IMG/VR virus record: IMGVR_UViG_3300025759_000063
Coordinates: 32,001-96,000 of that record
Source: a virus
Reading direction: 5' to 3' (one strand)
Length of the DNA stretch: 64,000 nt
Every line of letters starts with the position of its first letter. Within the stretch, counting starts at the first letter, position 1. Under the pieces are notes generated by a model that made no database searches, was not told the origin of the DNA, and saw only the letters and a program-made list of their open reading frames with translations. The translations under genes and the position numbers were made by a program. Shown piece after piece: positions 26,175 to 53,297 of this stretch.

Positions 26175-26211
26175 TTTACCATCGCTACACTACTAGGACA
26201 CTTTAAGGGGC

Positions 26212-26679
26212 TCAGATAGAAACAATCTCTTTAATGTAATAGGTGGAAGAATTGTAGCATTCATATTGCTTTTCTTTCTTATACTTTGTCCGATGAACTA
26301 TTGCTTTAATATTACTATATGTGTGACCCTTATTGCGTGCCCAAGTTGATAACTGCTTTACAATTTCTTCTGTCCCATCTCTAAAAATTATCTTATAAGT
26401 CTTTGCGTTAGGATTATTTTCTTTTAGTTGTTTTAGGTTTGCCTTTTTACCCTCTTCACTATGAACATTCACCCGTCCTCTATACCAACCATCTGGGATT
26501 TCATCACATTTGACCATCTTATTATCTGTTCCATTTGTTATCCAAATCTTACCTTTATTTGGAGGTGGTATATTCATTTCTTGTGGTGACAATAGCTCAT
26601 AATCATCTTCCATCAAGATGAAATCTTTTCCAGATACGTTGAAACATTCGTTCAACGATTGAACGCTTACTTTATTCAT
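26212..26679 (-). CDS. Homing-endonuclease-associated DNA-binding (NUMOD-like) protein, no clear catalytic domain
   Basis: NKGKIWITNG.DNKMV...IPDGWYRGR, HSEEGK and NPNAKTY motifs; late promoter upstream; stop inside repeat 8. Confidence 0.55.
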   Translation of the reverse strand: MNKVSVQSLNECFNVSGKDFILMEDDYELLSPQEMNIPPPNKGKIWITNGTDNKMVKCDEIPDGWYRGRVNVHSEEGKKANLKQLKENNPNAKTYKIIFRDGTEEIVKQLSTWARNKGHTYSNIKAIVHRTKYKKEKQYECYNSSTYYIKEIVSI

Positions 26680-26701
26680 TCTGCTTTATGTGTCGCAGTA
26701 T

Positions 26702-26777
26702 TATTTATACAAGAAAAGGGGCATTTCTGCCCCCATTCTCTTTGCTTAGTTGCGACACATAAGCATCATTATTTATA
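26702..26777 (-). ncRNA. Putative small late RNA (about 55 nt) between two TATAAATA promoters, complementary to the downstream leader
   Basis: TATAAATA at 26770-26777 and 26702-26709; TGCTTA-loop-TAAGCA hairpin; GGGGCA-GAAA-TGCCCC-TTTT terminator; 12-bp perfect complementarity 26751-26762 vs 26686-26697. Confidence 0.55.
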
Positions 26778-27071: not shown

Positions 27072-27137
27072 TTCAAAAGTTTAATAGTTTTTGTGGGAGC
27101 AGTGTGCTCCTCACACTACTGGAACACTTTAAGGGGC

Positions 27138-27956
27138 TCAGTAGACAGCAATCAATTCATTTGCTTTCTTTCTACTTCCACCATTTGCTGCAATAGTTCT
27201 AGACACTTGAATTGGATAGATTGTGGCATTTTTGTATAGTTCTCTGGTGATGGAAACGTCATTATTAGATACAATCACTTTAATACCCTTTGCAGCAAGA
27301 GATTCTGCAAGTTGTGCTAGTTTAACCTGCTGGTCTGATGTAAACCCATCAGTCGCATAGCTTGTGAAGTTTGATGTATCAGATGCAGGAACATATGGTG
27401 GGTCAAAATAGACAACATCACCTGCTTCCAAATCTTCATAAAGAGATAAATCTTCAAATGAAAGTGATGTGAACCGCACCAATTGTTTGGTGAGGAAATA
27501 CATCCTAAATTTCATCATCTCTTCAGATGGACAAGTTGGTTTTTCATATTTACCAAAAGGAACATTAAATCCACCATTTTTATTGTATCTTGACAGTCCA
27601 TTAAAGCAGTGGCGATTCAAATAGATGAATAGTCTTGCCCTTTCTTTAGAATCTGTTGATTGATTGAAGTGTTCTCTCAAATCAAGATATGACTCTTTAG
27701 TATTATTCTCTGGAATGAACAGTTCTTTACAATACTGAATAAAACTATCCTCATTTGGATCTAACAAATTCTGATAAATTGCCACCAAATCTTTATTCAC
27801 ATCATTGAGAATATACTGCTCTGCTGATGTGTTCAGTGCAACAGCAAGGCTCCCACCAAAGGGTTCACAATAACGCTTTGGACTACCAATATGGGGAGTA
27901 AGATGGGGAAGGACTCTATATTTGTTTCCTGCCCACTTTAGAAAGGGTTTATGCAT
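27138..27956 (-). CDS. dam: DNA adenine methyltransferase (Dam/D12 class)
   Basis: FLKWAGNK, EPFGGS, FNGLSRYNKNGGFNVPFG, DPPY, VSN motifs. Confidence 0.93.
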   Translation of the reverse strand: MHKPFLKWAGNKYRVLPHLTPHIGSPKRYCEPFGGSLAVALNTSAEQYILNDVNKDLVAIYQNLLDPNEDSFIQYCKELFIPENNTKESYLDLREHFNQSTDSKERARLFIYLNRHCFNGLSRYNKNGGFNVPFGKYEKPTCPSEEMMKFRMYFLTKQLVRFTSLSFEDLSLYEDLEAGDVVYFDPPYVPASDTSNFTSYATDGFTSDQQVKLAQLAESLAAKGIKVIVSNNDVSITRELYKNATIYPIQVSRTIAANGGSRKKANELIAVY

Positions 27957-44625: not shown

Positions 44626-47448
44626 TTACAAATAAACTGGTGTTGGTGAAATTGTTGTTGACGGAAGACTAGCACTTGATGCAGCAAGATAATATCGTCC
44701 TATACTTAAATCTGCACCAGGAGCTGCTGCTGTGGTATCAGTGGAATAAGTGACCTTATCCATTGTTGCTCTGGGAGCAGGGACTCTACCACCACCAAAG
44801 TAACCATTAGTATTATTACCTGTTGCAGCAAGAGCACGCCGTGCTAAACTTAAATCTGCACCAGGAACTGCTGCTGCGGTATCAGTGGAATAAGTGACCT
44901 TATCCATTGTTGCTACTGGACCAGGATTACCACCACCAAAGTAACCATTAGTACTATTACCTGTTGCAGCAAGAAAATAACGTCCTGAACGTAAATTCGC
45001 ACCAGGAGCTGCTGCTGTGGTATCAGTGGAATAAGTGACCTTTTCCATTGTTGATCTTGAAGGCTGCCCACCACCAAAGTAACCATTAGTATTATTACCT
45101 GTTGCAGCAAGAGCATATCTTGCTACAGTTAAATTGGCATTAGTGGGTGATGATATTGTATCTGTGGAATAAGTGACCTTATCCATTGTTGACTTTGAAC
45201 CAGGATTACCACCACCAAAGTAACCATTAGTACTATTACCTGTTGCAGCAAGCCAATAGCGTGCTACACTTAAATCCGCACCAGGAACTGCTGCTGTGGT
45301 ATCTGTTGAATAAGTGACCTTATCCATTGTTGCTGTGGTAGGATTACCACCACCAAAGTAACCATTAGTAATATTACCTGTTCCAGCAAGACCATATCTT
45401 GCTACACTTAAATTTGCACCAGGAACTGCTGCTGTGGTATCTGTGGAATAAGTGACCTTATCCATTGTTGCTACTGGACCAGTACTACCACCACCAAAGT
45501 AACCAGTGTTTGGTGCTGGTGAAATAGAGTCAAAAGTAGAAGATGTTGGAGTTGGTGCTGGAGGTTCTATTACAGGAAGTCCATTTGCCCTAGCACTTGA
45601 TGCAGCAAGACGATATCGTGCTGAACTTAAATTGGCATTAGGAACTGCTGCTGTGGTATCAGTGGAATAAGTGACCTTATCCATTGTTGCTGTGAGAGGA
45701 AAACCGCCACCAAAGTAACCATTAGTACTATTGCCTGTTGCGGCAAGAGCATAGCGTGCTGAACTTAAATTGGCACTAGGAGCTGCTGCTGTGGTATCTG
45801 TCGAATAAGTGACCTTATCAATTGTTGCTGTGACAGTAGGGATTCTACCACCACCAAAGTAACCATTGGTACTATTGCCTGTTGCAGCATGACGATATCG
45901 TACTACACTTAAATCTGCACCAGGAACTGCTGCTGTGGTATCTGTTGAATAAGTGACCTTATCCATTGTTGCTACTGGACCAGGATTACCACCACCAAAG
46001 TAACCATTGGTACTATTGCCTGTTGCAGCAAGACGATATCGTGCTGAACTTAAATTGGCACTAGGAGCTGCTGCTGTGGTATCTGTTGAATAAGTGACCT
46101 TATCCATTGTTGCTACTGGACCAGGATTACCACCACCAAAGTAACCATTGGTACTATTGCCTGTTGCAGCAAGAGCATAGCGTGCTAAACTTAAATCTGC
46201 ACCAGGAACTGCTGCTGTGGTATCAGTGGAATAAGTGACCTTATCCATTGTTGACTTTGAACCAGGATCACCACCACCAAAGTAACCATTGGTACTATTA
46301 CCTGTTGCAGCAAGAGCACGCCGTGCTACACTTAAATCTGCACCAGGAACTGCTGCTGTGGTATCTGTTGAATAAGTGACCTTATCCATTGTTGCTGTGG
46401 TAGGAGCACCACCACCAAAGTAACCAGTGTTTGGTGTAGGAAGAGTACCATCAGAAAATCTAGTTGCTGGAGGTTCTATTACAGGAAGACCATTTGCCCT
46501 AGCACTTGATGCAGCAAGAGCATATCTTGCTACACTTAAATCTGCACTAGAAGGAAGTGCTCCTGTGGTATCTGTTGAATAAGTGACCTTATCCATTGTT
46601 GCTGTGGTAGGAAAACCGCCACCAAAGTAACCATTGGTACTATTACCTGTTGCAGAAACATAATATCTTGCTACACTTAAATTTGCACTAGAAGGAAGTG
46701 CTCCTGTGGTATCAGTGGAATAAGTGACCTTATCTACTAATTGTGAGCTAGGAATACCACCACCAAAGTAACCGTTGGTACTGTTGCCTGTTGCAGCAAG
46801 AGCATAGTGTGCTACACTTAAATCTGCACCAGGAACTGCTGCTGTGGTATCAGTGGAATAAGTGACCTTATCCATTGTTGCTGTGGTAGGAGTACCACCA
46901 CCAAAGTAACCATTGGTACTGTTACCTGTAGCAGCAAGATATCTACGTGCTGCACTTAAATTGGCATTAGGAACTGCTGCTGTGGTATCAGTGGAATAAG
47001 TGACCTTATCCATTGTTGATACCCCACCAGGACCACCACCACCAAAGTAACCATTGGTACTATTACCTGTTGCAGCAACACCAAAACGTGCTAAACTTAA
47101 ATCTGCACCAGGAACTGCTGCTGTTGTATCGGTGGAATAAGTGACCTTATCCATTGTTGATTTTGGACCAGGATTACCACCACCAAAGTAACCGTTGGTA
47201 CCATTACCTGTTGCAGCAAGAGCTAAACGTGCTAAACTTAAATTGGCACCAGGAACTGCTGCTGTGGTATCTGTTGAATAAGTGACCTTATCCATTATTG
47301 ATGTGGCAGGAACACCACCACCAAAGTAACCAGTGTTTGGAGAACTTGGGGAAGGTACTATCCAAACTTCATCCAGAGGAACCCATTGATTGGAAAATTT
47401 AAATTTAAATGCTTCTTTAAGGGAAAATATTCCTCTGATGTTGGGCAT
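44626..47448 (-). CDS. Kelch-like triple beta-propeller protein (18 blades), paralogue 1
   Basis: 18 x GYFGGG...MDKVTYSTDT...LS.AR..LAATG repeats in 3 groups of 6 with Pro/Thr linkers. Confidence 0.8.
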   Translation of the reverse strand: MPNIRGIFSLKEAFKFKFSNQWVPLDEVWIVPSPSSPNTGYFGGGVPATSIMDKVTYSTDTTAAVPGANLSLARLALAATGNGTNGYFGGGNPGPKSTMDKVTYSTDTTAAVPGADLSLARFGVAATGNSTNGYFGGGGPGGVSTMDKVTYSTDTTAAVPNANLSAARRYLAATGNSTNGYFGGGTPTTATMDKVTYSTDTTAAVPGADLSVAHYALAATGNSTNGYFGGGIPSSQLVDKVTYSTDTTGALPSSANLSVARYYVSATGNSTNGYFGGGFPTTATMDKVTYSTDTTGALPSSADLSVARYALAASSARANGLPVIEPPATRFSDGTLPTPNTGYFGGGAPTTATMDKVTYSTDTTAAVPGADLSVARRALAATGNSTNGYFGGGDPGSKSTMDKVTYSTDTTAAVPGADLSLARYALAATGNSTNGYFGGGNPGPVATMDKVTYSTDTTAAAPSANLSSARYRLAATGNSTNGYFGGGNPGPVATMDKVTYSTDTTAAVPGADLSVVRYRHAATGNSTNGYFGGGRIPTVTATIDKVTYSTDTTAAAPSANLSSARYALAATGNSTNGYFGGGFPLTATMDKVTYSTDTTAAVPNANLSSARYRLAASSARANGLPVIEPPAPTPTSSTFDSISPAPNTGYFGGGSTGPVATMDKVTYSTDTTAAVPGANLSVARYGLAGTGNITNGYFGGGNPTTATMDKVTYSTDTTAAVPGADLSVARYWLAATGNSTNGYFGGGNPGSKSTMDKVTYSTDTISSPTNANLTVARYALAATGNNTNGYFGGGQPSRSTMEKVTYSTDTTAAAPGANLRSGRYFLAATGNSTNGYFGGGNPGPVATMDKVTYSTDTAAAVPGADLSLARRALAATGNNTNGYFGGGRVPAPRATMDKVTYSTDTTAAAPGADLSIGRYYLAASSASLPSTTISPTPVYL

Positions 47449-47515
47449 GACTTAAAAATATATTTTTTATAATCTTAATATCACTATTTAGATTATGTAA
47501 TTGTGATTTGTGATA

Positions 47516-50392
47516 TTACAAATAAACTGGTGCTGGTGAACTTGTTACTGGAAGACCATTTGCCCTAGCACTTGATGCAGCAAGACCATAACGTGCTAAA
47601 CTTAAATCTGCACCAGGAACTGCTGCTGTGGTATCAGTGGAATAAGTGACCTTATCCATTGTTGCTAATGGGCCAGTAAGACCACCACCAAAGTAACCAT
47701 TAGTACTGTTTCCTGTTGCAGCAAAAACCCAACGTGCTACACTTAAATCTGCACCAGGAGCTGCTGCTGTTGTATCAGTGGAATAAGTGACCTTATCCAT
47801 TGTTGCTACTGGACCAGGAATACCACCACCAAAGTAACCGTTGGTACTATTGCCTGTTGCAGCAAGATAAAATCTTGCTACACTTAAATTGGCACTAGGA
47901 GCTGCTGCTGTGGTATCAGTGGAATAAGTGACCTTATCCATTATTGCTGTGGTAGGAGAACCACCACCAAAGTAACCGTTGGTACTATTGCCTGTTGCAG
48001 CAAGATAAAATCTTGCTACACTTAAATTGGCACTAGAAGGAAGTGCTCCTGTGGTATCTGTCGAATAAGTGACCTTATCCATTATTGCTGTGTTAGGAGA
48101 ACCACCACCAAAGTAACCATTGGTACTATTACCTGTTGCAGCAAGATAAAAGCGTGCTACACTTAAATCTGCACTAGGAACTGCTGCTGTGGTATCTGTT
48201 GAATAAGTGACCTTATCCATTGTTGCTGTGATAGGAGAAGCACCACCACCAAAGTAACCATTGGTACTATTACCTGTTGCTGCGACGCCATAACGTGCTG
48301 CACTTAAATTGGCACCAGGAGCTGCTGCTGTTGTATCAGTGGAATAAGTGACCTTATCCATTGTTGCTACTGGACCAGGAACACCACCACCAAAGTAACC
48401 AGTGTTTGGTGATTGAGCAGAAAAAGTAGAAGATGTTGGAGTTGGTGCTGGAGGTTCTATTACAGGAAGTCCATTTGCCCTAGCACTTGATGCGCCAAGA
48501 TTTGCGCGGCCAAGACTTAAATTGGCACTAGAAGGAAGTGCTCCTGTGGTATCTGTTGAATAAGTGACCTTATCCGTTGCTGCTGTGGTAGGCTGCCCAC
48601 CACCAAAGTAACCATTGGTACTGTTACCTGTTGCAGCAGGATAAGAACGTGCTACACTTAAATCTGCACCAGGAACTGCTGCTCTGGTATCAGTGGAATA
48701 AGTGACCTTATCCATTGTTGCTGTGGTAGGAAGACCCCCACCAAAGTAACCATTGGTACTATTACCTGTTGCAGCAAGTACACGACGTGCTACACTTAAA
48801 TCTGCACCAGGAACTGCTGCTGTGGTATCTGTCGAATAAGTGACCTTATCCATTGTTGTTACGTCATTGGAAGAAGACCTACCACCACCAAAGTAACCAT
48901 TAGTACTATTACCTGTTGCAGCAACACCAAAACGTGCTACACTTAAATCTGCACCAGGAACTGCTGCTGTGGTATCAGTGGAATAAGTGACCTTATCCAT
49001 TGTTGATACTGCAGGAAAATCGCCACCACCAAAGTAACCATTGGTACTGTTTCCTGTTGCAGCAACACCATATTTTGCTCCACTTAAATTGGCACTAGAA
49101 GGAAGTGCTGCTGTGGTATCAGTGGAATAAGTGATTTTTTCGATTGATGAAAAACCACTACCACCACCAAAGTAACCATCAGCACCATTACCTGTTGCAG
49201 TAAGACCATTACGTCCTACACTTAAATATGCATTAGGAACTGCTCCTGTGGTATCGTTGGAATAAGTGATCTTATCCACTGTTGTTTTTGGACCAAAGAT
49301 ATCACCACTACCAAAGTAACCAGTGTTTGGAGTTGAAAAAATTCCATCAGAAAATCTATTTGGAGGCAAACTTAAAGGTTCTGAAGAAAATGTTCCTGTT
49401 GGAAGTCCATTTGCCCTAGCACTTGATGCAGCAAGAAAACCGCGTGCTACACTTAAATCTGCACCAGGAACTGCTGCTGTGGTATCTGTTGAATAAGTGA
49501 CCTTATCCATTGTTGCTGTGAGAGGAAAACCACCACCACCAAAGTAACCATTGGTACTGTTGCCTGTTGCGCCATAACCATAACGCTCTAAACTTAAATT
49601 TGCACTAGAAGGAAGTGCTCCTGTGGTATCAGTGGAATAAGTGACCTTATCCATTATTGATGCTGATGGACCAGTACCAGCACCAAAGTAACCATTAGTA
49701 CTATTACCTGTTGCAGCAAGACTATGTCGTGCTAGACTTAAATCTGCACCAGGAACTGCTGCTGTGGTATCTGTTGAATAAGTGACCTTATCCATTGTTG
49801 ACCTTGAACCCGGAAGACCACCACCAAAGTAACCATTAGTACTATTACCTGTTGCAGCAAGATTAAAACGTGCCAAACTTAAATCTGCACCAGGAACTGC
49901 TGCTGTGGTATCAGTGGAATAAGTGACCTTATCCATTGTTGCTGTGGTAGAAGGGAGTCTACCACCACCAAAGTAACCATTGGTACTATTACCTGTTGCG
50001 CCATGACTAAAACGTACTGCAGTTAAATTTGCACTAGGTGATCTTAATGTGGTCTCTGTCACATAATTTACCTTATCCATTATTGATACCGCAGAAGGAG
50101 TGCCACCCCCACCAAAGTAACCATTATTATTATTTCCTGTAGCGGCAATATATCTACGACCACCAGTTAAATTTGCACCAGGAACTGCTACTGTGGTATC
50201 TGTTGAATAAGTGACCTTATCCATTGTTGCAGTTACGGCGGGAGTAATACCACCACCAAAATAACCAGTGTTTGGAGTAGAAGTCAAAAATGGTGAGGGT
50301 GATATCCAAACCTCATCCAGAGGAATACCATTATCAGTAACTTTTAAATTATATATTTTTTTAAATGTAAATATCCCTCTGGTATCAGGCAT
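47516..50392 (-). CDS. Kelch-like triple beta-propeller protein (18 blades), paralogue 2
   Basis: Same architecture; CTAAATA at 50426-50432. Confidence 0.8.
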   Translation of the reverse strand: MPDTRGIFTFKKIYNLKVTDNGIPLDEVWISPSPFLTSTPNTGYFGGGITPAVTATMDKVTYSTDTTVAVPGANLTGGRRYIAATGNNNNGYFGGGGTPSAVSIMDKVNYVTETTLRSPSANLTAVRFSHGATGNSTNGYFGGGRLPSTTATMDKVTYSTDTTAAVPGADLSLARFNLAATGNSTNGYFGGGLPGSRSTMDKVTYSTDTTAAVPGADLSLARHSLAATGNSTNGYFGAGTGPSASIMDKVTYSTDTTGALPSSANLSLERYGYGATGNSTNGYFGGGGFPLTATMDKVTYSTDTTAAVPGADLSVARGFLAASSARANGLPTGTFSSEPLSLPPNRFSDGIFSTPNTGYFGSGDIFGPKTTVDKITYSNDTTGAVPNAYLSVGRNGLTATGNGADGYFGGGSGFSSIEKITYSTDTTAALPSSANLSGAKYGVAATGNSTNGYFGGGDFPAVSTMDKVTYSTDTTAAVPGADLSVARFGVAATGNSTNGYFGGGRSSSNDVTTMDKVTYSTDTTAAVPGADLSVARRVLAATGNSTNGYFGGGLPTTATMDKVTYSTDTRAAVPGADLSVARSYPAATGNSTNGYFGGGQPTTAATDKVTYSTDTTGALPSSANLSLGRANLGASSARANGLPVIEPPAPTPTSSTFSAQSPNTGYFGGGVPGPVATMDKVTYSTDTTAAAPGANLSAARYGVAATGNSTNGYFGGGASPITATMDKVTYSTDTTAAVPSADLSVARFYLAATGNSTNGYFGGGSPNTAIMDKVTYSTDTTGALPSSANLSVARFYLAATGNSTNGYFGGGSPTTAIMDKVTYSTDTTAAAPSANLSVARFYLAATGNSTNGYFGGGIPGPVATMDKVTYSTDTTAAAPGADLSVARWVFAATGNSTNGYFGGGLTGPLATMDKVTYSTDTTAAVPGADLSLARYGLAASSARANGLPVTSSPAPVYL

Positions 50393-50456
50393 GATTTATT
50401 GATATTTTTTGATACTTAATATTATTATTTAGATTATGTAATTGTGATTTGTGATA

Positions 50457-53297
50457 TTACAAATAAACTGGTGCTGCTAATGGAAGTCCATTTGCCCTAG
50501 CACTTGATGCGGTAACATACCTACGTTCCACGGTTAAATATGCACCAGGAACGTCTGCTGTGGTATCAGTAGAATAAGTGACCTTATCCATTGTTGATAA
50601 TACTGGACTAGTTCTACCACCACCAAAGTAACCGCTGGTACTATTACCTGTTGCCCCAAGACCATTACGTGCTAAAGTTAAATTCGCACCAGGAACTGCT
50701 GCTGTGGTATCAGTGGAATAAGTGACCTTATCCATTGTTGACTTTGAACCAGGAGTACCACCACCAAAGTAACCATTGGTACTGTTACCTGTTGCAGCAG
50801 TAACCCAACGTGCTACACTTAAATTTGCACTAGAAGGAAGTGTTGATGTTGTATCGTTAGAATAAGTGACCTTATCAATTGTTACTAAGATAGGAACTCC
50901 CCCACCACCAAAATAACCATTGGTAGTGTTGCCTGTTGCAGAAATTCTATTAAATTCATTAATTAAATTGGCACTAGGAGCTGCTGCTGTGGTATCAGTG
51001 GAATAAGTGACCTTATCCATTGTTGATACTTTACCGGGAGATGAACCACCACCAAAGTAACCATTAGTACTATTACCTGTTGCGCCATGACCATATCTTG
51101 CTACACTTAAATCTGCACCAGGAACTGCTGCTGTGGTATCAGTGGAATAAGTGACCTTATCCATTGTTGCTACTGGACCAGGAAACCCACCACCAAAGTA
51201 ACCATTGGTGCCGTTACCTGTAGCAGTAGTGTAACGTGCTGCACTTAAATTGGCACTAGGAGCTGCTGCTGTGGTATCTGTTGAATAAGTGACCTTATCC
51301 ATTATTGCTGTAGTACCGGGAAGAAGTTCACCACCACCAAAGTAACCAGTGTTTGGTAATTGAGCAGAAACAGTAGAAGATGTTGGAGTTGGTGCTGGAG
51401 GTTCTATTGCAGGAAGTCCATTTTCCCTAGCACTTGATGCAGCAAGAGCACGCCGTGCTACACTTAAATCTGCACCAGGAACTGCTGCTGTTGTATCAGT
51501 AGAATAAGTGACCTTATCCATTGTTGATACTGGAACAGAATTACCACCACCAAAGTAACCATTGGTACTATTACCTGTTGCAGCAACATAAAATCTTGCT
51601 ACACTTAAATTGGCACTAGGAGCTGCTGCTGTTGTATCAGTGGAATAAGTGACCTTATCCATTATTGCTGTACTAGGATTACCACCACCAAAGTAACCGT
51701 TGGTACTATTACCTGTTGCAGCAAGACCATAACGTGCTACACTTAAATCTGCACCAGGAACTGCTGCTGTGGTATCAGTGGAATAAGTGACCTTATCCAT
51801 TGTTGCGAATGGACCAGGCTGCCCACCACCAAAGTAACCATTGGTACTGTTACCTGTTGCAGCAATAAAACCGCGTGCTACACTTAAATCTGCACTAGAA
51901 GGAAGTGCTGCTGTGGTATCAGTGGAATAAGTGACCTTATCCATTGTTGCTGTGGTATCAGGGATTCTACCACCACCAAAGTAACCATTGGTACTATTGC
52001 CTGTTGCAGCATGAACATAGCGTGCTACACTTAAATCTGCACTAGGAGCTGCTGCTGTGGTATCTGTTGAATAAGTGACCTTATCCATTGTTGCTGTGAT
52101 AGGAGTACCACCACCAAAGTAACCATTAGTACTATTACCTGTTGCAGCAGGATAAGCACGTGCTACACTTAAATTGGCATTAGGAACTGCTGCTGTGGTA
52201 TCAGTAGAATAAGTGACCTTATCCATTGTTGCTGTGTTAGGAGCACCACCACCAAAGTAACCAGTGTTTGGTGTCGGAAGAGCACCATCAGAAAATCTAG
52301 TTGCTAGAGGTTCTATTACAGGAAGTCCATTTGCCCTAGCACTTGATGCGCCACGATATCTTTTTGCTGCACTTAATGGAGATGATGTGAGTTCTGATAC
52401 GGTCTCTGTCGAGTAATTAATCTTATCTAGAGTTGCTTTGCTAGGACTACCACCAGCAAAGTATCCGTCTGTTGAGTTTCCAGATCCAGTTATTCCATCC
52501 CCGGTATCACTTAAATAGACGCTAGGAACTGCTACTGTAGTATCAGTGGAATAAGTGATCTTATCTATTGTTGATACTGTACCAGGAATATTACCACCAG
52601 CAAAGTATCCGTGTGTTGAGTTTCCTGCTGCACCAAGTCCGCGACGTGCTGAACTTACATTGCCACTAGAAGGAAGTGCTCCTGTGGTATCAGTAGAATA
52701 AGTGACCTTATCCATTGTTGCTACATAGGGGCCGGGAAGATTGTCACCACCACCAAAGTAACCGTTGGTACTATTGCCTGTTGCAGCAAGAAAATATCTT
52801 CCTTGCGTTAAATCTGCACCAGGAACTGCTGCTGTGGTATCTGTAGAATAAGTGATCTTATCCATTGTTGATTTTTGTAAACGTCCCCCACCAAAGTAAC
52901 CGTTGGTACTATTGCCTGTTGCAGCAAGACCATAACGTGCTGCACTTAAATTGGCACTAGGAGCTGCTACTGTGGTATCAGTGGAATAAGTGACCTTATC
53001 CATTGTTGCTGCGGTAGGACTACCACCACCAAAGTAACCGTTGGTACCATTACCTGTTGCAGCAAGACCATAACGTGCTACACTTAAATCTGCACCAGGA
53101 ACTGCTCCTGTAGTATCTGTTGAATAAGTGACCTTATCCATTGTTGATACTGTAGGAAAACCGCCACCACCAAAGTAACCAGTGTTTGGAGAACTTGGGG
53201 GAGGTACTATCCAAACTTCATCCAGAGGAACCCATTGATTGGAAAGTTTAAATTCGGATATATCTTGAAAAGAAAATATTCCTCTGGTATCAGGCAT
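50457..53297 (-). CDS. Kelch-like triple beta-propeller protein (18 blades), paralogue 3
   Basis: Same architecture; CTAAATA at 53331-53337. Confidence 0.8.
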   Translation of the reverse strand: MPDTRGIFSFQDISEFKLSNQWVPLDEVWIVPPPSSPNTGYFGGGGFPTVSTMDKVTYSTDTTGAVPGADLSVARYGLAATGNGTNGYFGGGSPTAATMDKVTYSTDTTVAAPSANLSAARYGLAATGNSTNGYFGGGRLQKSTMDKITYSTDTTAAVPGADLTQGRYFLAATGNSTNGYFGGGDNLPGPYVATMDKVTYSTDTTGALPSSGNVSSARRGLGAAGNSTHGYFAGGNIPGTVSTIDKITYSTDTTVAVPSVYLSDTGDGITGSGNSTDGYFAGGSPSKATLDKINYSTETVSELTSSPLSAAKRYRGASSARANGLPVIEPLATRFSDGALPTPNTGYFGGGAPNTATMDKVTYSTDTTAAVPNANLSVARAYPAATGNSTNGYFGGGTPITATMDKVTYSTDTTAAAPSADLSVARYVHAATGNSTNGYFGGGRIPDTTATMDKVTYSTDTTAALPSSADLSVARGFIAATGNSTNGYFGGGQPGPFATMDKVTYSTDTTAAVPGADLSVARYGLAATGNSTNGYFGGGNPSTAIMDKVTYSTDTTAAAPSANLSVARFYVAATGNSTNGYFGGGNSVPVSTMDKVTYSTDTTAAVPGADLSVARRALAASSARENGLPAIEPPAPTPTSSTVSAQLPNTGYFGGGELLPGTTAIMDKVTYSTDTTAAAPSANLSAARYTTATGNGTNGYFGGGFPGPVATMDKVTYSTDTTAAVPGADLSVARYGHGATGNSTNGYFGGGSSPGKVSTMDKVTYSTDTTAAAPSANLINEFNRISATGNTTNGYFGGGGVPILVTIDKVTYSNDTTSTLPSSANLSVARWVTAATGNSTNGYFGGGTPGSKSTMDKVTYSTDTTAAVPGANLTLARNGLGATGNSTSGYFGGGRTSPVLSTMDKVTYSTDTTADVPGAYLTVERRYVTASSARANGLPLAAPVYL

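What the first reader, a model, noticed from the sequence alone, without database searches (positions are those of the whole stretch)
26212..26777. Compact small-RNA/target module controlling an endonuclease-like gene
Seen on the minus strand: TATAAATA, then ATGA TGCTTA TGTGTCGCAAC TAAGCA (hairpin presenting an 11-nt loop), then a GGGGCA-GAAA-TGCCCC-TTTT terminator. A second TATAAATA follows, then the leader ATAC TGCGACACATAA AGCAGA ATG. The RNA and the leader are perfectly complementary over 12 nt (15 with one bulge), ending next to the start codon. The unit begins right after the stop of the CAAD gene and ends with a stop inside repeat 8, like a discrete insert. The protein has NUMOD-like DNA-binding motifs but no visible nuclease site. 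Inference: a separately transcribed kissing-loop antisense RNA (type I antitoxin-like or guide-like) paired with a homing-endonuclease-derived gene, distinct from the simple cis hairpins known for T4 endonuclease genes.
Basis: partly seen in the sequence, partly recalled or inferred. Interest (0 to 1): 0.75.

Follow-up and report, generated by a model that had tools for sequence, protein, structure and literature searches.

The report
RNA control cassette on phage homing-endonuclease genes
A ~100-base control unit in front of a selfish, endonuclease-derived gene of a freshwater T4-like cyanophage carries two RNA segments that evolve in step to stay complementary; it elaborates a known phage T4 way of silencing such genes and may also make a small regulatory RNA.

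Summary
On the minus strand the order is: late-promoter motif P1, a weak hairpin, a strong terminator, late-promoter motif P2, then a leader complementary to the hairpin over 15 bp, ending 2 nt before the ATG.

It is not chance. The same module precedes GIY-YIG-like, HNH-like and nuclease-less homing-endonuclease-type genes in dozens of viral contigs. The cultured Synechococcus phage S-SRM01 has six copies. In 23 aligned copies the arm/leader helix is 99.7% paired, and 6 of 15 pairs show compensatory changes. Other metagenomes hold the empty site, so module plus ORF is a discrete 557-bp insert.

The 155-aa protein is the DNA-binding half of a GIY-YIG endonuclease that has lost its catalytic domain.

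Best reading: the arm masks the translation start. This is the T4 I-TevI/segB/mobE principle, with a late promoter placed so that late mRNA escapes the mask. New here are the terminator between the arms, the arm's own promoter-like motif and its own hairpin. These predict a ~52-nt late RNA that could act in trans. That is plausible (about 0.45) but untested, because no RNA ends could be read. The type I antitoxin and guide-RNA readings are not supported.

This scan has noted the module before on other genomes.

The parts
26770..26777 (-). P1: late-promoter-type octamer TATAAATA, directly after the CAAD gene stop; no ORF follows it
   Evidence: NATAAATA occurs 14 times on the minus strand and 0 on the plus strand of the window; P1 is one of only two copies without an ORF start within 60 nt. 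In samples found independently of P1, this position reads N[A/C]TAAATA and never has G or T at -12. CTAAATA is the late-promoter consensus of T4-like phage Aeh1 (PMC1524935). The first two bases (26777-26776) belong to the flank shared with empty-site alleles.
26743..26765 (-). H1: weak 5' hairpin (6-bp stem, 11-nt loop) whose 5' stem and loop carry the anti-leader arm (26751-26765)
   Evidence: H1 is in the minimum-energy fold of all 38 unique predicted RNAs. Six different 5'-arm types each keep a matching 3' arm: native -6.5 vs chimeric -4.0 kcal/mol. In S-SRM01, ACCUGA...UCAGGU replaces GCUUA...UAAGC.
26711..26740 (-). T: intrinsic terminator, a GC-rich stem (26718-26734) with GAAA loop, a flanking A-rich/U-rich extension, and U-tract 26711-26717
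   Evidence: In 23 aligned copies the 7-pair helix is 94% paired and 6 pairs have changes on both sides. The terminator-plus-TATAAATA arrangement resembles a T4 site annotated 'terminator | promoter'.
26702..26709 (-). P2: consensus late promoter TATAAATA, 22 nt before the ATG; predicted start near G26696
   Evidence: P2 is TATAAATA in 37 of 40 modules found through the protein alone. T4 late promoters lie at -13 to -6 (PMC1524935).
26682..26697 (-). Leader arm TGCGACACATAA-A-GCA, complementary to 26751-26765; the pairing ends 2 nt before the ATG
   Evidence: 12/12 perfect; 15 pairs, 99.7% of cells paired, 6 pairs with compensatory changes, 0 of 500 shuffles as good, slid controls 35-52% paired. 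All exceptions but one are G-U wobbles. Duplex energy -21.1 kcal/mol.
26212..26679 (-). ORF, 155 aa: a homing-endonuclease-derived DNA-binding protein without a catalytic domain; the stop codon lies in the flanking 29-bp repeat
   Evidence: only a PHROG HNH-endonuclease C-terminal match, residues 40-71. Residues 39-155 are 73% identical to residues 112-228 of 228-aa proteins with a GIY-YIG-like N-terminus. AlphaFold2 model pLDDT 74; best structural matches are the I-HmuI DNA-binding region (Z 5.8) and the I-TevI DNA-binding domain (Z 3.9). The full-length relative sits at the same site, before DUF6267, behind the same module.
26219..26775 (-). The whole cassette as a presence/absence polymorphism (557 bp)
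   Evidence: contigs of runs X14 and X23 join 26218 to 26776 with 24-30 other letters between, which form a small terminator hairpin on the minus strand.

Best explanation
Segment 26219-26775 is a mobile, homing-endonuclease-type gene cassette. Its first ~100 nt are a conserved RNA control module that keeps translation of the cargo gene low.

The module holds an 'anti-leader' arm. The arm is presented in a weak 5' hairpin (H1) and followed by a strong intrinsic terminator (T). It pairs over about 15 bp with the extreme 5' end of the mRNA made from the consensus late promoter P2. The pairing runs up to 2 nt before the AUG, so a 30S subunit cannot load.

Steps shown here:
- the pairing exists and is maintained by compensatory evolution;
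- the terminator helix and H1 are also maintained;
- the motif at P1 is constrained like a late promoter;
- the unit is a discrete insert that accompanies several endonuclease families.

Steps inferred:
- (i) Any transcript that reads through T, whether from upstream genes or from P1, carries both arms. It folds into the long-range helix and is translationally silent. This is the T4 I-TevI/segB/mobE/gene e principle.
- (ii) P2 transcripts start at the first paired base. They lack the arm and are the translatable form.
- (iii) RNAs that end at T carry the arm in an accessible loop. These are a ~52-nt RNA started at P1 and the 3' ends of upstream mRNAs. They can pair in trans with P2 mRNA (net -12 to -16 kcal/mol after opening H1). 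This would hold nuclease output down as phage DNA copy number rises late in infection.

I put about 0.8 on pairing-based translational repression, about 0.7 on cis masking of read-through transcripts, and about 0.45 on a biologically significant trans-acting small RNA.
For: **Pairing and covariation**
- Relatives carry the same architecture with different, mutually complementary arm/leader sequences. Examples: TTATGTTTGGTC/GACCAAACATAA, TTATGTGTGGTT/AACCACACATAA and TTATGTTTAGTC/GACTAAACATAA.
- On 23 MAFFT-aligned copies the helix has 15 pairs with 99.7% of cells paired. Six pairs carry changes on both sides, 0 of 500 shuffles match this, and slid controls give 35-52%.
- Non-Watson-Crick cells are G-U with a single exception. 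This fits RNA of this strand, not DNA or the opposite strand.
- Cognate arm/leader duplexes average -19.9 +/- 1.6 kcal/mol; non-cognate ones average -11.8 +/- 4.4 (38 unique modules).
- Phage S-SRM01 has six modules with six different addresses: cognate -18 to -24, non-cognate -3.7 to -14 kcal/mol.
- There is three-way covariation. The 5' arm, the H1 3' arm and the leader read GCUUA/UAAGC/UAA-A-GC in most copies but ACCUG/CAGGU/UAG-A-GU in three S-SRM01 copies. The bulged A is kept.

**Promoters**
- NATAAATA is 14:0 strand-specific in the window and usually lies 12-23 nt before ORF starts. NATAAATA is the published late promoter of cyanomyoviruses (PMC2984593).
- P2 is TATAAATA in 37 of 40 protein-ascertained modules. 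P1 is N[A/C]TAAATA in 35 of 35 parsed.
- NCTAAATA is also 8:0 strand-biased in the window. It is the late-promoter form in phage Aeh1 (PMC1524935).

**Accessibility**
- The 5' 13 nt of the P2 mRNA are unpaired in its own fold.

**Cargo and mobility**
- Cargo genes are endonuclease families.
- Empty-site alleles exist.

**Known precedent**
- T4 I-TevI, I-TevII, I-TevIII and segB, and Aeh1 mobE, use an RNA helix over the initiation region plus a late promoter that makes unmasked mRNA (PMC2988022, PMC3014915).
Against: - No RNA 5' or 3' ends could be read. The single RNA run holds only low-depth assembled contigs from related modules. Some of them span upstream gene, P1, H1, T and P2, which could be read-through RNA or contaminating DNA.
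- H1 alone is weak and not significant in a single sequence (z = -1.6). MAFFT plus RNAalifold did not recover it.
- P1 is almost never the full consensus: TATAAATA in 1 of 40, against 37 of 40 for P2.
- P1's first two bases come from the flank, at least in this window.
- The conserved TAAATAA also supplies stop codons for the upstream gene. P1 could therefore be conserved for reasons other than transcription, or be a weak promoter.
- The more distant relative in phage RB11-B has no P1 at all. It carries the anti-leader in the loop of a terminator-like hairpin.
- No other target of the arm exists in the 112-kb contig.
- If P1 and P2 fire together, it is unclear how the gene is ever expressed unless repression is partial.
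Confidence: 0.8

Rival explanations
1. Cis-only T4-type mask. The arm matters only on transcripts that read through the terminator from upstream genes. The terminator merely replaces the one that the insertion displaced. P1 and H1 are by-products: stop codons or the recombination end of the cassette, and a folding aid. No small RNA has a function.
For: - This is the documented mechanism for T4 and Aeh1 endonuclease genes (PMC2988022, PMC3014915).
- The empty site carries its own small terminator at the same place.
- The read-through fold is very stable: -44.8 kcal/mol, z = -6.8.
- P1 is sub-consensus and partly flank-derived.
- RB11-B lacks P1.
- RNA-library contigs span T and P2.
Against: - A strong, covarying terminator between the two arms means most arm-bearing RNAs never contain the leader.
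- The motif at P1 keeps A or C at -12 and TAAATA in every unbiased copy, while the neighbouring hairpin sequence changes completely.
- P1 sits at a fixed 4-5 nt from the base of H1, so a P1 transcript would begin exactly at the hairpin.
- H1 is maintained through six arm types, which a pure cis mask does not need.
- Complementarity always begins within about 2 nt of the predicted P2 start.
Confidence: 0.35
2. The pairing is a positive element. The arm-bearing RNA binds the 5' end of the late mRNA to stabilise it (a 5' duplex protecting against RNase E) or to open an inhibitory fold, and so activates expression.
For: The duplex covers the extreme 5' end of the P2 mRNA.
Against: - The P2 mRNA has no inhibitory structure over its start: the 5' 13 nt are unpaired and z = -0.07.
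- The duplex ends 2 nt from the AUG, inside the ribosome footprint.
- Every documented precedent for endonuclease genes is repressive (PMC2988022).
Confidence: 0.05
3. A type I toxin-antitoxin pair, or a guide RNA for the encoded protein.
For: A small structured RNA is complementary to the leader of a gene whose relatives are nucleases and potentially toxic.
Against: - The product is a 155-aa soluble DNA-binding protein, not a small membrane toxin.
- The RNA is same-strand and upstream, not antisense-encoded.
- The same module serves unrelated cargo families, so it is not co-adapted to one protein.
- No RNA-binding domain was found.
- The only complementary site in the contig is the gene's own leader.
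Confidence: 0.03
4. A DNA-level inverted repeat: an operator for the encoded DNA-binding protein, or a recombination site.
For: - I-TevI represses its own late promoter through an operator (PMC2988022).
- The repeat flanks P2.
- Recombination junctions fall next to P2 (L063).
Against: - Variation is by compensatory and G-U-compatible changes on one strand only.
- The same repeat logic is kept before unrelated proteins with different DNA-binding regions.
- The arms are 53 nt apart.
Confidence: 0.03

Closest known systems
Translational masks with a nested late promoter on T-even homing-endonuclease and late genes (T4 I-TevI, I-TevII, I-TevIII, segB; Aeh1 mobE; T4 e, soc, 49)
   Same: An upstream RNA strand pairs with the translation initiation region. 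A TATAAATA-type late promoter lies downstream of that strand, so late transcripts are unmasked. The cargo is a selfish endonuclease gene, and an intrinsic terminator adds a further layer of control (PMC2988022, PMC3014915).
   Different: - The promoter lies in the loop between the arms, not inside the 5' strand.
- A strong terminator separates the arms.
- The 5' arm has its own late-promoter-type motif and its own local hairpin.
- No Shine-Dalgarno sequence is evident; the pairing covers the whole short 5' UTR from +1.
- The module is one conserved, shuffled cassette shared by several endonuclease families, with a variable 'address'.
c4 antisense RNA of phages P1 and P7 (immI operon c4-icd-ant)
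   Same: A small RNA encoded on the same strand, upstream of its target in the same transcription unit, with short complementarity to the downstream gene's initiation region (operon layout: PMC8198154, citing Citron and Schuster 1990).
   Different: As I recall, c4 is processed from the operon transcript and controls an antirepressor in a temperate phage. Here a dedicated promoter and terminator are predicted, the phage is lytic and T4-like, the target is an endonuclease-type gene, and action in trans is unproven.
IS10 RNA-OUT / RNA-IN (multicopy inhibition of a selfish element's enzyme)
   Same: The loop of a small hairpin RNA is complementary to the extreme 5' end and initiation region of the selfish gene's mRNA.
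   Different: RNA-OUT is a true antisense transcript from the opposite strand with about 35 bp of complementarity. Here the RNA is same-strand, with about 15 bp and a bulge.
PeSL mobile promoter/stem-loop cassettes of T4-type phages
   Same: Short conserved promoter-plus-hairpin units at gene borders in variable regions, associated with gene swapping (PMC2839356, PMC4122927). Here cargo genes are exchanged behind one module.
   Different: PeSLs are early-promoter/terminator motifs with no arm/leader complementarity. The PeSL paper I searched by keyword (PMC4122927) mentions neither late promoters nor antisense, and names homing endonucleases only as a separate route of exchange.
CfrI antisense RNA of cyanophage S-PM2
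   Same: A non-coding RNA of a T4-like cyanophage associated with a homing endonuclease gene (PMC2984593).
   Different: CfrI is a ~225-nt true antisense transcript spanning the endonuclease gene and psbA. It has no sequence or architectural similarity to this module.

Membership tests
T4-type translational mask with nested late promoter | An RNA helix covers the translation initiation region of the regulated gene | tested here: met
   A 15-bp helix ends 2 nt before the AUG and covers the whole 5' UTR from +1. It is maintained by covariation. Its effect on ribosome binding is inferred.
T4-type translational mask with nested late promoter | A late promoter is placed so that late transcripts lack the 5' strand of the helix | tested here: met
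   P2 (TATAAATA) lies between the arms, 22 nt before the ATG. It is consensus in 37 of 40 modules. Promoter activity itself is not testable here.
T4-type translational mask with nested late promoter | The masked form arises on longer transcripts that enter from upstream promoters | not testable with these tools
   A strong terminator lies between the arms, so read-through frequency is unknown. RNA-library contigs spanning T exist but may be DNA.
Trans-acting base-pairing small RNA (c4-like or RNA-OUT-like) | A discrete small transcript with defined 5' and 3' ends | not testable with these tools
   Predicted only. Its parts are a late-promoter-type motif 4-5 nt before H1, a covarying terminator, and a length of about 52 nt. 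No raw RNA reads were available.
Trans-acting base-pairing small RNA (c4-like or RNA-OUT-like) | Complementarity to the target's initiation region, with matched changes that set specificity | tested here: met
   cognate -19.9 vs non-cognate -11.8 kcal/mol, and six orthogonal pairs within S-SRM01.
Trans-acting base-pairing small RNA (c4-like or RNA-OUT-like) | Regulation when RNA and target are on separate molecules | not testable with these tools
   It is thermodynamically favourable: -12 to -16 kcal/mol net. There is no functional evidence.
Type I toxin-antitoxin system | A small toxic (usually membrane) peptide | tested here: not met
   The product is a 155-aa protein whose residues 39-155 are a homing-endonuclease DNA-binding region.
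Type I toxin-antitoxin system | An RNA antitoxin transcribed antisense to, or divergently from, the toxin mRNA | tested here: not met
   The arm is on the same strand, upstream, and separated from the target by a terminator and a promoter.
Free-standing homing endonuclease gene | A GIY-YIG, HNH or other nuclease catalytic domain | tested here: not met
   For the window's ORF there is no Pfam nuclease domain. The GIY-YIG-like N-terminal ~110 aa of its 228-aa relatives is replaced by an unrelated ~38 aa. Sibling cargo genes do match PHROG homing-endonuclease and HNH families. The GIY-YIG label rests on the visible motif and on PHROG 314; Pfam and PDB sequence matches were below threshold.
Free-standing homing endonuclease gene | Presence/absence polymorphism at a fixed site between conserved genes | tested here: met
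   Empty-site contigs occur in runs X14 and X23. The full-length relative sits at the same site before DUF6267.
Free-standing homing endonuclease gene | A NUMOD/helix-turn-helix type DNA-binding region | tested here: met
   PHROG 10820 C-terminal match. 73% identity to the C-terminal half of the GIY-YIG-like proteins. VIA-align hits: I-HmuI Z 5.8 and I-TevI DNA-binding domain Z 3.9, both weak.
PeSL cassette | An early (sigma-70-type) promoter fused to a stem-loop, repeated at many gene borders | tested here: not met
   The promoters here are late-type. The 112-kb contig has only one copy. The separate 29-bp repeat flanking the cassette is the better PeSL-like candidate.
Rfam families | A match to any curated covariance model | tested here: not met
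   No hit near any gathering score; the best E-value was 1.6.

The most novel reading that the evidence does not exclude
Each homing-endonuclease gene of these cyanophages has its own dedicated ~50-nt late small RNA. It is made from P1 and ended at T, and it acts in trans on the 5' end of the late mRNA through a short variable address. S-SRM01 would carry six mutually orthogonal pairs. The RNAs would give copy-number-dependent ('multicopy') inhibition of selfish nucleases in the replicating phage DNA pool. They would be trans-acting regulatory small RNAs in the T4 superfamily, for which a 2010 review found none functionally characterised in T4, and a natural set of orthogonal riboregulators.
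Probability: 0.45. Interest if true: 0.8.

Novelty: new variant of a known kind. Interest (0 to 1): 0.6.

Why it matters
**How selfish nuclease genes are kept harmless.** Homing endonuclease genes must be kept nearly silent to persist in a phage genome. T4 showed one solution: a cis hairpin with a nested late promoter. This module shows that freshwater T4-like cyanophages have packaged that solution into a portable ~100-nt cassette. The cassette travels with, and is swapped between, GIY-YIG-like, HNH-like and nuclease-less cargo genes. Its arm and leader co-evolve.

**A possible small RNA.** The added promoter-like motif, 5' hairpin and internal terminator make a concrete, cheap prediction: a ~52-nt late RNA. 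A 2010 review states that no small trans-acting regulatory RNA had been functionally characterised from T4 (PMC3014915). If the prediction holds, this would be one in the T4 superfamily, regulating selfish genes. It would also supply several naturally orthogonal RNA/leader pairs.

**It is testable.** A cultured phage, S-SRM01, carries six copies, and none is annotated as a feature in the stretch of the record I inspected.

**If only the cis mode operates,** this is a well-documented new variant of a textbook mechanism. It is still useful for annotating cyanophage genomes. Gene callers currently run ORFs through the module or start this gene at an internal Met.

Tried and rejected
- **Megablast** of the 2.8-kb neighbourhood against cultured phages found nothing.
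- **blastn** found only S-SRM01, plus generic terminator-plus-late-promoter similarity in T4-like coliphages.
- **Rfam** had nothing near threshold.
It was replaced by a terminator-tail/P2 pattern and by a protein-based sample.
- **MAFFT plus RNAalifold** recovered the long-range helix and the terminator but not H1. H1 was assessed instead by per-sequence folding and arm-swap chimeras.
- **Extra trans targets of the arm** in the 112-kb contig: none on the coding strand beyond the gene's own leader.
- **RNA evidence.** The one RNA run (seawater metatranscriptome, 5% of words) gave only low-depth assembled contigs from related modules. These say nothing about RNA ends, strand or level. One apparent end is an adapter junction. 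I draw no habitat or expression conclusion from it.
- **Structure search** of the 155-aa model: Foldseek found nothing significant. VIA-align gave weak but sensible homing-endonuclease DNA-binding hits.
- **Sequence search of the GIY-YIG-like relative** against the PDB and Pfam fell below threshold.
The genomic context of the full-length relative was obtained with the search for related loci instead.
- **Riboswitch or attenuator reading** was rejected. Neither H1 nor the long-range helix competes with the terminator stem.
Full report
**What is there**

Read on the minus strand, the CAAD-domain gene (Pfam CAAD, E = 1.6e-15) ends with TGA at 26780-26778. The following elements come directly after it:

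- P1, TATAAATA, at 26777-26770.
- Four bases.
- A small hairpin, H1: TGCTTA / 11-nt loop TGTGTCGCAAC / TAAGCA, at 26765-26743.
- A GC-rich stem-loop with a GAAA loop and the tail TTTTCTT, at 26734-26711 (T).
- A second TATAAATA, P2, at 26709-26702.
- The leader ATAC-TGCGACACATAA-A-GCA-GA, then ATG at 26679.

The 12-nt perfect inverted repeat is confirmed by the repeat finder (26686-26697 / 26751-26762). With one bulged A it extends to 15 bp.

Three folds were computed:

| RNA | Energy (kcal/mol) | z-score |
|---|---|---|
| 131-nt region: long-range helix enclosing the terminator | -44.8 | -6.8 (0 of 200 shuffles as good) |
| Stretch from 6 nt after P1 to the U-tract (54 nt): H1 plus terminator | -24.0 | -4.5 |
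| H1 alone | -5.9 | -1.6 |

The first 13 nt of an mRNA begun 6 nt after P2 are unpaired in its own fold.

**The genome and its promoters**

The window is part of a 112-kb IMG/VR viral contig estimated to be about half complete. Its nearest cultured relatives at this locus are two phages:

- Synechococcus phage S-SRM01, a freshwater member of Kyanoviridae.
- RB11-B, more distantly.

NATAAATA is the published late-promoter motif of T4-like cyanophages, which keep gp55, gp33 and gp45 (PMC2984593). In T4 it lies at -13 to -6 (PMC1524935).

In the window NATAAATA occurs 14 times on the coding (minus) strand and never on the other. Nine of the 14 lie 5-30 nt before a long ORF's ATG. P2 is one of these, 22 nt before the ATG. 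P1 is one of only two copies not followed by an ORF start within 60 nt.

**The module is a widespread, conserved cassette**

*Close relatives.* Two contigs that encode relatives of the 155-aa protein (68% and 55% identity) have the same layout. Their arm/leader pairs are different and mutually complementary: TTATGTTTGGTC/GACCAAACATAA and TTATGTGTGGTT/AACCACACATAA.

*DNA-pattern search.* A pattern spanning P1 and the start of H1 found 59 viral contigs. About 40 of them carry the whole module in front of quite different ORFs.

*The cargo genes.* By PHROG and Pfam these ORFs are homing-endonuclease families:
- PHROG 314 and 655 'homing endonuclease';
- HNH families;
- NUMOD3;
- a weak endonuclease VII match.

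Several carry a visible GIY...YIG motif.

*Covariance-model search.* A model built from 23 copies finds one copy in the window's contig and six in S-SRM01. Each S-SRM01 copy lies directly before an endonuclease-type gene. The stretch of the S-SRM01 record I inspected, around the 55.96-kb copy, lists only protein-coding genes.

**Covariation**

On 23 copies aligned by MAFFT without reference to structure, the counts are as follows:

| Measure | Arm/leader helix | Terminator helix |
|---|---|---|
| Pairs | 15 | 7 |
| Cells paired | 99.7% | 94% |
| Pairs with changes on both sides | 6 | 6 |
| Pairs varying on one side only | 4 | 1 |
| Pairs that never vary | 4 | 0 |

One arm/leader pair departs only by a single unpaired cell. 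For the whole structure, 0 of 500 shuffles reach the observed pairing. Sliding the 3' partners by 1-3 columns drops pairing to 35-52%.

Every departure from Watson-Crick pairing but one is a G-U. The constraint therefore acts on RNA of this strand, not on DNA.

Duplex energies show the same specificity:
- Across 38 unique modules, cognate duplexes average -19.9 +/- 1.6 kcal/mol and non-cognate ones -11.8 +/- 4.4.
- Within S-SRM01 the six cognate pairs are -18 to -24 kcal/mol, and the 30 non-cognate combinations are -3.7 to -14.

H1 is present in the minimum-energy fold of all 38 predicted RNAs. Six different 5'-arm types each keep a matching 3' arm (native -6.5 vs chimeric -4.0 kcal/mol).

In three S-SRM01 copies the 'constant' part has changed in all three partners at once:

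| Partner | Most copies | Three S-SRM01 copies |
|---|---|---|
| 5' arm | GCUUA | ACCUG |
| H1 3' arm | UAAGC | CAGGU |
| Leader | UAA-A-GC | UAG-A-GU |

The bulged A is kept. So both the local hairpin and the long-range helix are selected, and they are mutually exclusive over five or six bases.

**Is P1 a promoter?**

P1 was part of my first search pattern, so I made two samples that do not depend on it.

- A pattern on the terminator tail, P2 and the leader gave about 33 modules.
- A protein-based search with a full-length GIY-YIG-like relative gave 53 unique upstream regions. Forty of these have P2 plus an arm/leader duplex of -14 kcal/mol or better.

In the protein-based set the octamers are:

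| Site | Octamers (of 40 modules) |
|---|---|
| P2 | TATAAATA 37; CATAAATA 1; GATAAATA 1; AATAAATA 1 |
| P1 | NATAAATA 18 (only one of them TATAAATA); NCTAAATA 17; not parsed by my script 5 |

G or T never occurs at the second position of P1.

CTAAATA is the late-promoter consensus of the T4-like phage Aeh1, and -13 is poorly conserved in most T4-like phages (PMC1524935). In this window NCTAAATA is 8:0 strand-biased, with 3 of 8 copies just before ORF starts. The G and T variants show no such bias.

P1 therefore looks constrained like a late promoter, though a less canonical one than P2. It keeps a fixed 4-5-nt distance to the base of H1 even where H1 has a different sequence.

Three caveats apply:
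- In this window the first two bases of P1 belong to the flank shared with the empty site.
- TAAATAA also supplies the upstream gene's stop codon in many copies.
- RB11-B has no P1. It carries the anti-leader in the loop of a terminator-like hairpin before its TATAAATA.

**A discrete insert**

Contigs from two other DNA runs (estuary and unlabelled) join 26218 to 26776. They skip 557 nt and hold 24-30 other bases there, which form a small hairpin plus T-run on the minus strand.

The insert therefore runs from TAAATAAT... to the third-last codon of the ORF. The ORF's last two codons and its stop lie in the flanking 29-bp repeat. That repeat has a near-identical copy after the dam gene and further matches elsewhere in the contig.

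Cargo exchange behind one module is visible in two comparisons:
- L009 and L020 share the upstream gene and the module but have different ORFs.
- L063 shares P1, H1, T and P2 with L014, but carries an HNH-type gene whose leader no longer pairs. The junction is just after P2.

**The protein**

The 155-aa product has no Pfam nuclease domain. Its only match is to the C-terminal part of a PHROG HNH-endonuclease family (residues 40-71).

Residues 39-155 are 73% identical to residues 112-228 of 228-aa metagenomic proteins. Their N-terminal ~110 aa carry the motif YTYAYLREDGTPYYIGKG.... One of these full-length genes sits at the same site, before the DUF6267 gene, behind the same module with yet another address.

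The AlphaFold2 model has mean pLDDT 74, with an unconfident N-terminal third. Its best structural matches are the DNA-binding regions of I-HmuI (Z 5.8) and I-TevI (Z 3.9). Both are weak by the tool's own standard.

The window's gene is therefore a nuclease-less derivative of a GIY-YIG-type homing endonuclease. Its ~38-aa N-terminus (MNKVSVQSLNECFNVSG...) recurs on proteins with other NUMOD3/HTH tails.

**Mechanism**

The core is the mechanism documented for T4 I-TevI, I-TevII, I-TevIII and segB, Aeh1 mobE, and T4 genes e, soc and 49. An upstream strand masks the initiation region, and a late promoter makes mRNA that lacks that strand (PMC2988022, PMC3014915). I hold pairing-based repression at about 0.8.

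Three things differ from the T4 cases:
- a strong terminator between the arms;
- a promoter-type motif placed so that a transcript would begin exactly at H1;
- H1 itself.

Together these describe a typical small-RNA gene. The predicted RNA is about 52 nt, with its seed in the loop and 5' stem of a weak hairpin. The target is the free 5' end of the late mRNA. Net dimerisation energy is -12 to -16 kcal/mol after opening H1.

The closest known layouts are the c4 RNA of P1/P7 (same strand, upstream of its target; PMC8198154, citing Citron and Schuster 1990) and, in logic, IS10 RNA-OUT.

Whether the trans mode operates cannot be decided here. The only RNA run gave assembled contigs, which cannot show ends and may include DNA. 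I put it at about 0.45 and cis-only at about 0.35. The cis and trans modes can also coexist.

**Novelty**

None of the following describes the module:
- Rfam;
- the S-SRM01 paper;
- the cyanomyovirus genome comparison;
- the PeSL paper searched;
- the two T4 reviews.

The T4 review states that no small trans-acting regulatory RNA had been functionally characterised from T4 (PMC3014915).

Earlier notes of this scan describe the same module on other genomes. One follow-up reached the same 'elaborated T4 trick' verdict. I tested the claims independently here.

Noticed in passing
window 26566-26679 (minus strand): The first ~17-38 residues of the ORF (MNKVSVQSLNECFNVSG...) are a portable N-terminal motif. 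It is found on proteins whose remaining parts differ: NUMOD3 arrays, HTH tails and the GIY-YIG-type DNA-binding half. It stands where a nuclease domain would be, and its function is unknown. A nuclease-less DNA-binding copy at a homing site might protect the site or act as a repressor.
   Followed up: partly
window 26649-26665 (minus strand): A 7-bp hairpin, CGTTCAA-TCG-TTGAACG, lies at codons 5-10 of the ORF. Relatives keep the stem while the loop varies (TCG, TCA, GCA). This may be RNA structure, or simply the conserved peptide.
   Followed up: no
window 26187-26215 and 27113-27141; further matches in the contig: A 29-bp repeat (plus strand ACACTACTAGGACACTTTAAGGGGCTCAG) sits between genes throughout this accessory region. 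It supplies the stop codon of the cassette ORF and forms the right-hand border of the insert. It is a PeSL-like candidate for cassette shuffling.
   Followed up: partly
L063:302-408: A natural recombinant. P1, H1, T and P2 are identical to those of a GIY-YIG-type cassette, but they are joined just after P2 to an HNH-type gene whose leader no longer pairs with the arm. This would be a naturally 'unmasked' endonuclease gene.
   Followed up: partly
L011:2890-2990 (Synechococcus phage RB11-B): A distant homologue of the ORF has a simpler module. There is no P1. The anti-leader GGCAGGGGT sits in the loop of a single terminator-like hairpin, followed by TATAAATA and the leader ACCCCTGTC. This may be an ancestral or reduced form.
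   Followed up: partly
S-SRM01 MW015081: about 17951, 48431, 51245, 55957, 62404 and 192419: Six module copies in one cultured phage, each before an endonuclease-type gene annotated 'hypothetical protein' or similar. Contig L013 and contig L044 each carry two copies.
   Followed up: yes
window about 45260-53090 (plus-strand matches): About 23 copies of TGCTACACTTAA at spacings that are mostly multiples of about 140 nt. This looks like a long tandem-repeat region or repeat-domain gene.
   Followed up: no
window 26212-26679: The public protein collection holds this gene only as a 133-aa product started at an internal Met (P0001). In relatives, gene callers sometimes extend the ORF upstream through the module (P0002, P0018). 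The conserved ATG at 26679 is the likely start.
   Followed up: partly
T4-like coliphages, e.g. T4 about 155.82-155.86 kb: The terminator-plus-TATAAATA part of some module variants (GGGTGCTTTCGGGCACC-TTTTCTTG-TATAAATA) is 82-85% identical to a site annotated 'terminator | promoter' in T4-like coliphages. This is probably convergence on a UUCG-loop terminator next to a late promoter.
   Followed up: no
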